The translations under genes and the position numbers were made by a program. From an uncultured archaeon (lineage in GTDB: Archaea > Asgardarchaeota > Lokiarchaeia > Sigyniarchaeales > SOKP01), in NCBI GenBank assembly GCA_964632315.1, contig CAZWEM010000006.1, positions 32,001 through 96,000 of the forward strand: a DNA stretch of 64,000 nt, given 5' to 3'. Below are positions 59,946 to 61,477 of this stretch, piece after piece. Numbering within the stretch: the first letter of the stretch is position 1; every line of letters starts with the position of its first letter. The notes under the pieces were generated by a model, which saw only the letters and a list, made by a program, of their open reading frames with translations, did no database searches and was not told the origin of the DNA.

Positions 59946-61166
59946 TTATCTATCTCTATGAGATAATGTACTAGGAATCCTTTTTTCAGGTTCGCTTTTG
60001 GTTTCGGATGATTCACTACCGCTGTGTATTACTATAGGTCTCCAAGTTTTTTCTTTAGAACTACTTTCAGGCATTTGAATATTTTCTGCAGATGATGTCG
60101 AACTACTTATTGGTTGATATTTCACTCGTCCAGGCTTTTTTCGAGCAGCTTTCATGACTGCAATGCTAACCGCTACCAATGAAAGAGAACCGATTGCAAG
60201 ATAGTTCCAAGGAATATCAGTAAATATGTTAAATTTAGGGGTACTTGGTATATGCCAGCTTAATCGTGGATCATAGGATCCATTTATTACACTCCCAAAA
60301 TTCACGTAAATTTGACCAGTATTAATAGGGACAGCAGAGCTTGGCGTAGTCGTGTTTACTATTGTTTCAAGATCGTTTATTATCGCAGTATCATACCATA
60401 GATATCCTGCTTTAAAGTTTCCACTCGAAGTGGTCGCCGATAAATCCAAGTTTGAAAAAATGATATCTTGATTTGAAGTTAACGAAAGATTTAACGCAAG
60501 TTGAGTTCCTCCAGTTATCGGTGTATAATTTGTAATTGTTATAGAAGATTTCAGTTCATTTGGACTTAAAGATCCGACTTGACGACTGAGGAGAACGTGT
60601 TCTTGAGTTGTATAAAAGTCAACTTTAAATATTCCATCAATTGTAGAATAGCTTGAATAATACGCGGGTTTTCCGTCAACTCCATATCCAAATCCTAAGC
60701 GTAACATGTTGTTTAAGCTTGTTTTTCCGACCACGGTATCAGTAGTAGGATCAAAAAAACCATTATCATTTCCATCAACAAACTCTATTAACGAATCATA
60801 CTTAATTTTAAAATCAAGGAGGGGTATTGCTGTAGAAACGTCATCATAAAGACCTAATTCAACATTTACATTCGAACTAAATCCACCATGAGAGAGTCCC
60901 AAATTATGACCGACTTCATGGCCACCAGTGCCAGTTTCGTAAGTCCGAAAAAAGAGAGTGTTATCTAAAATTTCGAAATATAAGGAGTTATCAGCACTTC
61001 CCTCTTCAAGATCAGGGATCGAATCTCCATCACTGTCTTGCGTTTTCATGATATCTATATATATAATCATGCCAAGTGAAATTGCAGAAGTAATACTAAA
61101 TATAATTAATAGAGTTGTTCCAATATTCACATGAGGTTTATCCCTCACAAATTTTTCTTTTGACAT
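59946..61166 (-). CDS. Two-TM membrane protein with beta-rich ectodomain, carrying short segments resembling EF-Tu, zincin and tail-tube/Hcp motifs
   Basis: MSKEKFVRDKPHVNIGT, TM, DSDGDSIPD, HEVGHNLGLSHGG, ectodomain (SLIEFVDGNDNGFFD...YDPRL), TM, RKKPGRVKYQPI. Confidence 0.8.
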   Translation of the reverse strand: MSKEKFVRDKPHVNIGTTLLIIFSITSAISLGMIIYIDIMKTQDSDGDSIPDLEEGSADNSLYFEILDNTLFFRTYETGTGGHEVGHNLGLSHGGFSSNVNVELGLYDDVSTAIPLLDFKIKYDSLIEFVDGNDNGFFDPTTDTVVGKTSLNNMLRLGFGYGVDGKPAYYSSYSTIDGIFKVDFYTTQEHVLLSRQVGSLSPNELKSSITITNYTPITGGTQLALNLSLTSNQDIIFSNLDLSATTSSGNFKAGYLWYDTAIINDLETIVNTTTPSSAVPINTGQIYVNFGSVINGSYDPRLSWHIPSTPKFNIFTDIPWNYLAIGSLSLVAVSIAVMKAARKKPGRVKYQPISSSTSSAENIQMPESSSKEKTWRPIVIHSGSESSETKSEPEKRIPSTLSHRDR

Positions 61167-61477
61167 TTTAAATCGCTTTTTATATTATTCGTTCAAGTAA
61201 GATGAGTCATAAAATTCAATAGAAAAAGCTGAGGATTATTAAAAATTTGAAAGGAAAGTGAAAGCCTTATTGATTTTTTGACTTTTCTGAAAAAGATTTT
61301 TATTATATAATTTTTGCTTCTTATCTCGTGTAAAATCCAGCTATCATTTATTCTATAAGGTTCAATGGATATTGATTTATTATACTTTGGTCAAACAACA
61401 CTAATAACTTTTAATTTGAAACCCGAATCCTTTTTAGAAGATTCAAACATGTATGATAAGCTCAATTATTAATATAA

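What the first reader, a model, noticed from the sequence alone, without database searches (positions are those of the whole stretch)
61116..61166. Bacterial EF-Tu N-terminus (elf18-like epitope) fused directly to a TM helix
Seen: the gene begins MSKEKFVRDKPHVNIGT and then switches abruptly to hydrophobic TLLIIFSITSAISLG, just before the position of the P-loop GHVDHGKT. Knowledge: E. coli EF-Tu begins MSKEKFERTKPHVNVGTIG, giving 14 of 17 identical by my alignment. Archaeal EF-1alpha does not have this KEKFxRxKPHVN form. The same stretch is the elf18 pattern sensed by plant EFR and contains the Lys methylated by EftM. Inference: a captured or mimicked bacterial epitope serves as the n-region of a signal anchor.
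Basis: partly seen in the sequence, partly recalled or inferred. Interest (0 to 1): 0.8.

Follow-up and report, generated by a model that had tools for sequence, protein, structure and literature searches.

The report
Bacterial EF-Tu start heads archaeal membrane proteins
An Asgard archaeon's surface membrane protein begins with an exact copy of the first 16-18 amino acids of the bacterial translation factor EF-Tu; selection has kept this short cytoplasmic tail almost unchanged while the rest of the protein diverged, which points to an unknown cellular reader of that peptide.

Summary
The minus-strand gene 59946..61166 (406 aa) starts MSKEKFVRDKPHVNIGT and then enters a membrane helix. The consensus of its roughly 90 Asgard homologues, MSKEKFVRDKPHVNIGTI, matches real EF-Tu of Myxococcota and Chloroflexota at 18 of 18 residues. 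The genome's own EF-1alpha starts differently.

The tail is the most conserved stretch of the protein. Its pN/pS is 0.06 against about 0.5 elsewhere, while its synonymous sites are saturated. It is therefore translated, selected as a peptide, and not a recent transfer, an RNA element or an assembly chimera; contigs from three independent studies bridge the junction.

Distant paralogues carry ordinary Sec signal peptides, so the EF-Tu piece replaced a normal n-region. The outer domain has a GLMP-like beta-sandwich fold, and the HExxH motif does not belong to a protease.

New here: the same tail heads an unrelated 91-aa two-helix protein in Thorarchaeota. In bacteria the same peptide forms the mature N-terminus of exported proteins that always sit beside a TraX-type N-acetylase gene.

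This scan met the same family before in another genome (e1-5505043). I found no paper describing it.

The parts
59946..61166 (-). Whole gene: 406-aa two-pass membrane protein (P0001). It is single-copy in the genome and belongs to an Asgard family of about 90 sequence clusters.
   Evidence: ORF and translation; homologues; no Pfam family at E<=0.1.
61116..61166 (-). EF-Tu-type N-terminal tail, residues 1-17 (MSKEKFVRDKPHVNIGT). It is the predicted cytoplasmic n-region, and residues 1-16 are nearly invariant in the family.
   Evidence: Residues 1-16 are the most conserved 16-residue stretch: 0.95 mean column identity against 0.70 for the ectodomain. pN 0.049, pS 0.78, pN/pS 0.06. M1 S2 K3 E4 F6 R8 K10 P11 H12 are invariant. 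18/18 identity of the consensus to real EF-Tu. PDB hits are EF-Tu only.
61047..61118 (-). TM1, about residues 17-40. This is the hydrophobic helix of the signal anchor and begins where EF-Tu would have its P-loop.
   Evidence: AlphaFold2 helix 15-42; hydropathy and charge flanks; paralogues have a cleavable-type signal peptide at this position.
61011..61037 (-). Acidic DSDGDSIPD motif just outside TM1. It corresponds to the poly-Asp/DDDGxDD stretch after the signal peptide in the paralogues.
   Evidence: D44, D46, D48 and D52 are invariant; paralogue N-termini.
60240..60995 (-). Extracellular all-beta supersandwich domain (residues 58-309) with a GLMP-like fold, carrying 4 NxS/T sequons in this protein.
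   Evidence: Model pLDDT mostly 80-97. GLMP luminal domain 6nyq_C: Foldseek E 5.6e-10; VIA-align Z 19.5, rmsd 3.6, 232 residues aligned, next unrelated fold Z 13.8. Sequons.
60888..60920 (-). HEVGHNLGLSH (residues 83-93). It is conserved in the family but lies in a beta strand of the model and is not part of a zincin protease fold.
   Evidence: H83, E84, G86, H87 and H93 are >=90% conserved; modelled as strand 86-93; no protease among the fold matches; absent from the 27%-identical member P0090.
60144..60209 (-). TM2, about residues 320-341.
   Evidence: Helix 320-341; hydropathy.
59949..60143 (-). Cytoplasmic C-terminal tail: a conserved RKKPGRVKY next to the membrane, a disordered Ser-rich middle, and a conserved C-terminal end (...RIPxTLxHRDR).
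   Evidence: R342, K343, P345, G346, P398 and R406 are >=90% conserved; pLDDT <50 for 344-394; net charge about +5.4 after the last TM.
61215..61245 (-). AT-rich upstream motif (ATAATC..AG.TTTTTCTATT type) shared with genus-level homologues. It is a candidate promoter or leader element and is not tuf-like.
   Evidence: Upstream regions printed side by side; seen by eye only.

Best explanation
The gene encodes a two-pass Asgard surface glycoprotein with a GLMP-like beta-sandwich outside the cell and both ends inside. Its first 16-18 residues descend from the 5' end of a bacterial tuf gene. That fragment replaced the ordinary positively charged n-region of a Sec-type signal sequence, and the membrane helix starts where EF-Tu's P-loop would be.

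The peptide is translated and has been kept almost invariant by protein-level purifying selection, over a time long enough to randomise synonymous sites and to let the rest of the protein fall to 27-50% identity. The same peptide also heads an unrelated two-helix mini-protein in Thorarchaeota.

Most likely the tail, after removal of Met1 and probably N-acetylation of Ser2, lies on the cytoplasmic face of the membrane. There it would work as a short linear recognition motif, read by a cytoplasmic binding partner or modifying enzyme.

Shown: identity to EF-Tu starts, translation, selection on the peptide, its position as the n-region, and its modular reuse. Inferred: origin by capture, cytoplasmic location, and N-terminal processing.
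For: Identity to EF-Tu:
- The family consensus is 18/18 identical to genuine bacterial EF-Tu starts.
- 53 of 53 PDB hits are EF-Tu, aligned from residue 1.

Selection on the peptide:
- The tail is the most conserved stretch of the family.
- pN/pS is 0.06 for the tail against 0.46-0.57 for TM1, the ectodomain and the C-tail, with pS about 0.75-0.78 everywhere. The fraction of codon differences at identical residues is 0.445 against 0.511.
- A member only 27% identical, from a GC-rich genome and starting with GTG, still reads MSKEKFVRDKPHVNFG.

Start and assembly:
- In-frame stops lie 2-7 codons upstream in most homologues.
- Independent contigs span the junction.

Position and topology:
- Distant paralogues have ordinary signal peptides.
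- Charge pattern and sequons place the tail in the cytoplasm, and a helix covers residues 15-42.

Modularity:
- The Thorarchaeota 83-102-aa two-TM family (about 30 clusters in two subfamilies about 40% identical) carries the same invariant tail, with pN/pS 0.05 against 0.58.
- A third archaeal architecture is P0139.
- In bacteria the peptide forms the mature N-terminus of exported proteins next to TraX in 9 of 9 loci (L169-L173, L175-L179). L170, L171 and L172 encode the same protein, as do L176 and L179.
Against: - No reader was found. There is no conserved neighbour gene, no TraX above cut-off in this genome, and no orphan or truncated EF-Tu body. An EF-Tu-like pseudo-GTPase does not co-occur with the gene.
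- From my own knowledge, the EF-Tu N-terminus has no described stand-alone binding partner inside prokaryotic cells, and EftM needs the body of EF-Tu.
- The tail is modelled with low confidence (pLDDT about 55).
- The gene is patchy: the ATG-anchored pattern was found in 13 of 400 Asgard genomes and 5 of 42 in the genus including G000. The function is therefore accessory.
- The bacterial exported versions are extracytoplasmic, so a single shared cytoplasmic reader cannot explain every context.
- Whether TM1 is cleaved is unresolved.
Confidence: 0.5

Rival explanations
1. The tail is a specialised targeting or insertion signal. It would be a conserved n-region motif read by the membrane-targeting or insertion machinery, working like the twin-arginine, YSIRK or ESPR extensions of bacterial signal peptides.
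For: It occupies exactly the n-region of a signal sequence. It is followed by a hydrophobic helix in all three archaeal architectures. A scan note describes a CPR bacterium where the tuf start fronts an export signal (e1-1071615; not checked here).
Against: Only one gene per genome carries it, whereas dedicated routes normally serve many substrates. Paralogues with the same ectodomain manage with ordinary signal peptides. It has no twin arginine and no [KR]G pilin-type site (read directly from the sequence). In the bacterial exported proteins the peptide comes after the signal peptide.
Confidence: 0.17
2. TM1 is a cleavable signal peptide, and the released N-terminal fragment (EF-Tu-like tail plus half a helix) has a function of its own after targeting. 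From my own knowledge, some eukaryotic signal-peptide fragments do this.
For: S30 and G32 are >=90% conserved in a ...SLG motif that fits the -3/-1 rule. It lines up with the ...VLG|S-poly-Asp sites of the paralogues.
Against: The hydrophobic stretch is about 25 residues long and is modelled as one continuous helix 15-42, which is typical of an uncleaved anchor. About 11 partly hydrophobic residues follow SLG. The Thorarchaeota family has no such site.
Confidence: 0.1
3. The tail acts during translation. The nascent peptide borrowed from a very highly expressed gene would improve early elongation or yield, with no binding partner involved.
For: [quoted passage not shown] Selection acts on the amino acids, not the nucleotides.
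Against: Invariance reaches residue 12-16 (R8, K10, P11, H12, V13), far beyond the few codons known to affect early elongation. The bacterial exported proteins keep the same peptide 25-40 residues downstream of their start codon.
Confidence: 0.08
4. The resemblance to EF-Tu is convergent or due to chance, and the tail was never part of a tuf gene.
For: Synonymous sites are saturated, so no DNA-level trace of a donor remains. The best bacterial tuf starts match 42 of 48 bases, which is uninformative for an identical peptide.
Against: The consensus is 18/18 identical to natural EF-Tu and anchored at Met1. Every PDB hit is EF-Tu. Among the EF-Tu fragments recovered, the variable positions (2, 7, 9) are also the ones that vary in the tails; that sample is biased by the search profile.
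Confidence: 0.03
5. The feature is an artefact: either a chimeric assembly joining bacterial tuf reads to an archaeal gene, or a mis-called start.
For: The genome is a metagenome bin with 8.6% estimated contamination.
Against: About 120 distinct sequences from NCBI, JGI, ENA and Logan carry the tail, some on contigs up to 411 kb. Contigs from three studies bridge the junction. Codons are AT-rich and archaeal in style and differ synonymously between relatives. Stops lie just upstream.
Confidence: 0.01

Closest known systems
N-terminus of bacterial elongation factor EF-Tu (the elf18 region; TIGR00485 / PF00009 proteins)
   Same: Residues 1-18 of the family consensus are identical to the start of real EF-Tu from Myxococcota and Chloroflexota. 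The window's copy is 14/17 identical to E. coli. Ser2 follows Met1, so from general knowledge the mature end is probably the same as in EF-Tu.
   Different: There is no P-loop, G domain, domain 2 or domain 3. A membrane helix follows instead. The host is an archaeon whose own factor is EF-1alpha with a different start.
GLMP / NCU-G1, the glycosylated lysosomal membrane protein of animals (PDB 6NYQ; 8R8Q in complex with MFSD1)
   Same: The outer domain has the same beta-supersandwich fold (Z 19.5, 232 residues aligned, rmsd 3.6; Foldseek E 5.6e-10). It is glycoprotein-like and is followed by a C-terminal membrane helix and a short basic cytoplasmic tail.
   Different: Sequence identity is only 12% and there is no Pfam hit. 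The protein has an extra N-terminal anchor carrying the EF-Tu tail. No transporter partner is known, and it comes from an archaeon.
Conserved n-region motifs of signal peptides (twin-arginine Tat motif, YSIRK-G/S, ESPR of autotransporters)
   Same: It is a short, strongly conserved motif placed before the hydrophobic core of an export or anchor signal. This is a comparison of how it might work.
   Different: The sequence is unrelated. It occurs on one gene per genome rather than on a class of substrates, and it is identical to the start of a housekeeping protein from another domain of life.
Capture of the tuf start by an exported-protein gene in a CPR bacterium (scan note e1-1071615; unpublished AI note, not checked here)
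   Same: The first ~14 codons of tuf serve as the front of an export signal for an unrelated membrane or exported protein.
   Different: That case is a recent 129-bp duplication lying inside the tuf locus. Here the genome has no tuf, the event is ancient (synonymous sites are saturated), and the peptide is under strong selection in two families.
TraX-linked exported proteins with an EF-Tu N-terminus
   Same: The same (S/A)KEKFVRDKPHV peptide sits at the predicted mature N-terminus of an otherwise unrelated protein.
   Different: These are bacterial. The peptide follows a cleavable AxA signal peptide and is therefore outside the cytoplasm. A divergent TraX gene is always adjacent. This archaeal genome has no TraX above cut-off.

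Membership tests
Bacterial EF-Tu (PF00009 G domain + PF03144 + PF03143) | P-loop GHVDHGKT and a GTPase domain after the N-terminal strand | tested here: not met
   After GT the sequence continues as a hydrophobic helix. Pfam finds no family at E<=0.1.
Bacterial EF-Tu (PF00009 G domain + PF03144 + PF03143) | Conserved N-terminal motif M-[SA]-KEKF-x-R-x-KPHVN-[IV]-GTI | tested here: met
   14/17 identical to E. coli. The family consensus is 18/18 identical to Nannocystaceae and Promineifilaceae EF-Tu.
Bacterial EF-Tu (PF00009 G domain + PF03144 + PF03143) | Beta-barrel domains 2 and 3 | tested here: not met
   No Pfam hit in the protein. In the whole genome, domain 3 is found only in aEF1A and domain 2 only in translation-factor paralogues.
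GLMP / NCU-G1 (PF15065) | Sequence match to the family profile | tested here: not met
   A Pfam scan of the protein returns 0 families at E<=0.1.
GLMP / NCU-G1 (PF15065) | Luminal/extracellular beta-sandwich fold of GLMP | tested here: met
   6nyq_C gives Z 19.5, rmsd 3.6, 232 residues aligned, and 8r8q_B gives Z 17.6. The next unrelated fold gives 13.8. Foldseek E 5.6e-10. This rests on a predicted model.
GLMP / NCU-G1 (PF15065) | Works with an MFS transporter partner (MFSD1) | not tested
   No conserved neighbour was found within about 1.5 kb in homologous loci. No partner search was made.
Metzincin / zincin metalloprotease | HExxHxxGxxH lying in the active-site helix of a protease fold | tested here: not met
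   The motif is present and conserved, but it is modelled in beta strand 86-93 of a sandwich domain. No protease appears among the fold matches. This test is model-based.
Sec-type signal peptide / signal anchor | Positively charged n-region followed by a hydrophobic h-region, with the domain after it outside the cell | tested here: met
   Tail net charge about +2.2; helix at 15-42; about -6.2 after TM1; 3-8 sequons in the domain; paralogues carry classical signal peptides at the same place.
Sec-type signal peptide / signal anchor | Cleavage by signal peptidase | not testable with these tools
   A conserved SLG fits the -3/-1 rule, but the hydrophobic stretch is of anchor length. Mass spectrometry is needed.
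Tat signal peptide | Twin-arginine motif in the n-region | tested here: not met
   The tail holds a single Arg (R8) and no RR.
Class III (type IV pilin-like) archaeal signal peptide | Charged residue at -2 and Gly/Ala at -1 immediately before the hydrophobic stretch | tested here: not met
   The sequence before the helix is N-I-G, with Ile at -2.
EFR ligand elf18 / EftM substrate | Exposed N-acetylated 18-mer sensed outside the cell; Lys5 methylation by EftM | not testable with these tools
   The tail is predicted to be cytoplasmic. EftM does not modify the isolated peptide. elf18 is defined as the N-acetylated first 18 residues (PMC8408165).

The most novel reading that the evidence does not exclude
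The first 12-18 residues of EF-Tu act as a portable recognition tag used across two domains of life. The tag has been captured repeatedly and kept at the mature N-terminus of unrelated membrane and exported proteins. These include two, possibly three, archaeal architectures, and bacterial exported proteins paired with a TraX-type N-acetylase. If so, prokaryotes possess an undescribed system (a receptor, enzyme or quality-control factor) that reads the probably acetylated EF-Tu N-terminus, much as plants do with EFR.
Probability: 0.3. Interest if true: 0.9.

Novelty: categorically new. Interest (0 to 1): 0.74.

Why it matters
[quoted passage not shown] I know of no described precedent for this.

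It gives a concrete, testable handle on an unknown interaction at the archaeal membrane: a 16-residue peptide that can be synthesised and used as bait.

It also changes a common assumption. The EF-Tu N-terminus is usually treated as a passive, flexible end that only plants happen to sense. Its repeated reuse, including the bacterial TraX-linked exported copies found here, suggests that microbes themselves read it.

The GLMP-like outer domain adds a candidate eukaryote-like membrane protein to the Asgard repertoire.

Tried and rejected
1. RNA or DNA element in place of a peptide: rejected, because synonymous sites in the tail are as saturated as elsewhere.

2. Split EF-Tu, or docking of the tail on an EF-Tu-like body: rejected.
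- All translational GTPase paralogues keep their own first strand and P-loop.
- Domain 3 occurs only in aEF1A.
- The one extra domain-2 protein is an EF-Tu/SelB-like pseudo-GTPase found in 28 of 42 genomes of the genus. Most of these lack the tail gene, and it was not found in G272, which has the tail gene.

3. Metzincin protease: rejected on the model.

4. Conserved neighbour as a hint to a partner: none found within about 1.5 kb in 14 homologous loci.

5. Family libraries: no Pfam hit for the long or the short proteins. The ESM Atlas look-up of the short protein gave only unnamed archaeal clusters.

6. Donor clade: the exact peptide occurs in several bacterial phyla, and the best DNA match of the first 48 bases is 42/48, so no donor can be assigned.

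7. Family of P0139: the search was flooded by EF-Tu candidates and returned only P0139 itself.

8. Transcription of the start: the single RNA-library contig (X11) covers only 60496-60912, so it says nothing about the 5' end.

9. TraX in this genome: the best hit scores 17.7 bits, below the 25-bit cut-off.

10. Literature: no paper holds the peptide string, and none links GLMP with Asgard.

11. Complex prediction was not used, because no candidate partner was well enough motivated.
Full report
**What is there.** The finding lies at the 5' end of a minus-strand ORF, 59946..61166, which encodes 406 residues. Pfam finds no family in it. The neighbours are a KptA/Tpt1 RNA 2'-phosphotransferase, a glucose/sorbosone dehydrogenase-like protein and a YfcE-type phosphoesterase. 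The genome is a 4.4-Mb bin of 119 contigs. Its homologues and sister contigs are labelled Promethearchaeota/Lokiarchaeota, so it is an Asgard archaeon. Its own elongation factor is an archaeal EF-1alpha that starts MKMPTQKDHLNLVIIGHIDHGKST. The EF-Tu-like peptide occurs only once in the genome.

**Is the resemblance real?** Yes.
- Against the E. coli EF-Tu start printed, the window's peptide is 14/17 identical.
- A blind PDB search with the first 40 residues of a family member returned 53 chains. All were bacterial or mitochondrial EF-Tu, aligned from residue 1.
- A degenerate-codon scan of one genome per prokaryotic species found at least 119 places encoding M-x-KEKFVRDKPHVNIGT. Apart from two Promethearchaeota contigs, these are tuf genes or tuf starts cut by contig ends.
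- Full-length EF-Tu of Nannocystaceae/Enhygromyxa, Polyangia and Promineifilaceae begins with exactly MSKEKFVRDKPHVNIGTI. That is 18/18 identical to the consensus of the archaeal family.

**Is it an artefact or a wrong start?** No.
- The family has about 90 sequence clusters from NCBI, JGI, ENA and Logan assemblies, some on contigs of 300-411 kb.
- In-frame stop codons lie 2-7 codons upstream of the ATG in most homologues, and 7 codons upstream in the window.
- Contigs from three independent DNA studies bridge the start and the tail/helix junction.
- The upstream DNA is AT-rich archaeal intergenic sequence with a motif shared among genus-level homologues. It is not tuf-like.

**Selection.** This is the central result.
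- In 73 full-length members, residues 1-16 are the most conserved 16-residue stretch of the protein. Mean column identity is 0.95, against 0.61 for TM1 and 0.70 for the ectodomain. M1, S2, K3, E4, F6, R8, K10, P11 and H12 are invariant.
- On nine genes with DNA in hand, Nei-Gojobori proportions for the tail codons are pS 0.78 and pN 0.049. The rest of the gene has pS 0.74-0.75 and pN 0.35-0.42. That gives pN/pS of 0.06 against about 0.5 (the simpler count agrees).
- A relative only 27% identical, from a GC-rich genome and starting with GTG, still reads MSKEKFVRDKPHVNFG.
- The tail is therefore translated and held by strong purifying selection on the peptide. It is not an RNA or DNA element, and it is not a recent transfer.

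**Anatomy and topology.** An AlphaFold2 model built on 41 family members (mean pLDDT 78) shows:
- a disordered tail;
- one helix at residues 15-42;
- an all-beta domain at about 58-309;
- a second helix at 320-341;
- a disordered C-terminal tail.

Across the family the tail carries about +2.2 net charge. The 20 residues after TM1 carry about -6.2, and the 20 after the last helix about +5.4. The domain between the helices holds 3-8 NxS/T sequons. Both ends are therefore predicted to be cytoplasmic and the beta domain external.

The external domain matches the luminal domain of animal GLMP best: Foldseek E 5.6e-10; Z 19.5 with 232 residues aligned at rmsd 3.6. Carbohydrate-enzyme sandwich domains follow at Z <= 13.8. 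The conserved HEVGHNLGLSH lies in a beta strand of this sandwich, so it does not mark a metzincin. The cytoplasmic C-tail has conserved elements of its own, RKKPGRVKY and the extreme C-terminus.

**Where the tail came from.** Distant paralogues of the same ectodomain are 22-30% identical and often occur as tandem pairs in related genomes. They begin with ordinary Sec signal peptides: MKKK, a hydrophobic core, a small-residue site, then poly-Asp. In one subfamily the EF-Tu fragment therefore replaced a normal n-region, and the membrane helix starts where the P-loop of EF-Tu would be.

No donor can be named. The exact peptide occurs in several bacterial phyla, and synonymous saturation has erased any DNA signal. 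A scan note on a CPR bacterium, where an exported-protein gene sits in the tuf start and borrows its first 14 codons (e1-1071615), offers a plausible route. I did not check that note.

**The tail is a module.** A codon-pattern scan of 400 Asgard genomes found it in 13 genomes, always once per genome. This is a lower bound, because GTG starts are missed.
- Nine hits are the long family.
- Four hits, in another Asgard family, are proteins of 83-92 residues: the same tail, a helix, a short loop, a second helix and a short basic end. The wider family runs to 102 residues.
- This small-protein family has about 30 clusters labelled Thorarchaeota, in two subfamilies about 40% identical. The tail is again the most conserved part, with pN/pS 0.05 against 0.58.

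An exhaustive profile search with tail plus TM1 against 1.84 billion representatives gave 833 hits at E <= 0.001. I classified 143 of the listed hits:
- 106 were EF-Tu N-terminal fragments.
- P0139 is a 432-residue protein on an archaeal-looking contig, with MSKEKFQRTKPHVNIG, a helix and an unrelated body. It is a singleton.
- Three were small bacterial proteins in which a classical signal peptide ending in AxA is followed directly by (S/A)KEKFVRDKPHVNIG.

A metagenome scan for the peptide preceded by Ala found five more loci of this bacterial kind, two of which encode the same protein. All nine loci of this kind lie divergently next to a TraX-family gene. L170, L171 and L172 encode the same protein.

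[quoted passage not shown] Bacteria therefore appear to export a copy of the EF-Tu N-terminus that is probably acetylated. This archaeal genome has no TraX above cut-off.

**How it most likely works.** The tail is under peptide-level selection far beyond what a generic positive n-region needs. It sits at the extreme N-terminus in every context and is carried by unrelated proteins. The best reading is a short linear recognition motif on the cytoplasmic face of the membrane, read by a binding partner or modifying enzyme.

- there is no conserved neighbour;
- no truncated EF-Tu body exists for the tail to complement;
- an EF-Tu/SelB-like pseudo-GTPase does not track the gene across the genus;
- EftM needs the EF-Tu body.

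Rivals that remain open are a dedicated targeting motif, a cleaved signal peptide whose fragment acts on its own, and a nascent-chain effect on translation. Convergence and artefact are practically excluded.

**Comparison and novelty.** The protein is not an EF-Tu, since it has no P-loop and no EF-Tu domains. It is not a metzincin. By sequence it is not a Pfam GLMP member, although it shares the GLMP fold. No paper in the searchable library contains the peptide string or links GLMP with Asgard archaea.

The same family was met earlier by this scan in another genome. That follow-up reached the same reading: a GLMP-like protein with an EF-Tu-like start conserved for an unknown reason (e1-5505043). 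My results reproduce this independently. They add the exact identity to natural EF-Tu, the selection test, the replaced signal peptide, the second archaeal family, and the TraX-linked bacterial proteins.

Noticed in passing
L170:1971-2420 (+) with TraX at L170:1200-1880 (-); also L173:4620-4979, L169:242-586, L175-L179: In GC-rich bacteria, small exported proteins have a signal peptide ending in AxA that is followed directly by (S/A)KEKFVRDKPHV and then a Lys-rich disordered tail. In all 9 loci seen (L170, L171 and L172 encode the same protein, as do L176 and L179) the gene lies divergently next to a TraX-family gene, the F-pilin N-acetylase family. In one lineage a LolA-like/FtsX/FtsX/ABC cluster follows. 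This looks like an undescribed gene pair that makes an exported, probably acetylated copy of the EF-Tu N-terminus.
   Followed up: partly
L044:1264-1536 (-), L045:1261-1536 (-), L046:481-753 (-), L047:438-686 (+): Thorarchaeota two-helix mini-proteins of 83-102 aa start with the same invariant MSKEKFVRDKPHVNIG. The family has about 30 clusters in two subfamilies about 40% identical. Their neighbours differ between loci.
   Followed up: yes
L167:6001-7299 (+): A 432-aa protein on an archaeal-looking contig (TFIIB zinc ribbon, GHMP kinase, UbiA and ThrRS nearby) starts MSKEKFQRTKPHVNIG. This is another EF-Tu flavour, followed by a helix and a body unrelated to the window's protein. No relatives were found.
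   Followed up: partly
window 60240-60995 (-): The external domain has the fold of the animal lysosomal membrane protein GLMP (Z 19.5). The wider superfamily, which includes tandem paralogues with ordinary signal peptides, is common in Lokiarchaeia-type genomes. It is a candidate eukaryote-like membrane protein family with no Pfam model match.
   Followed up: partly
window 60888-60920 (-): A perfect HExxHxxGxxH (HEVGHNLGLSH) is conserved in the family but is modelled as a beta strand in a sandwich domain. It may be a metal site but is not a zincin active site. It is absent from the most distant tail-bearing member (P0090).
   Followed up: partly
window 59949-60143 (-): The cytoplasmic C-tail has two conserved islands: RKKPGRVKY next to TM2, and the extreme C-terminus ...RIPxTLxHRDR. 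A disordered Ser-rich stretch of variable length separates them. This is a second candidate docking site on the same face of the membrane as the EF-Tu-like tail.
   Followed up: no
window 61215-61245 (-): An AT-rich motif of the type ATAATC..AG.TTTTTCTATT lies about 50-80 nt upstream of the start and is shared by genus-level homologues. It is probably a promoter or leader element.
   Followed up: no
L181:1115-2293 (-) = G000:C4:134114-135292: A 392-aa EF-Tu/SelB-like paralogue has a degenerate P-loop (VVGILGDNFDLRQ, with no GxxxxGK[ST]) and an EF-Tu domain 2. It was found in 28 of 42 genomes of the genus and is unrelated to the distribution of the tail gene.
   Followed up: partly
L001:1483-2724 (+) = G000:C1: The genome's EF-1alpha gene runs off the end of contig C1, so the last residues are missing from the assembly.
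   Followed up: no
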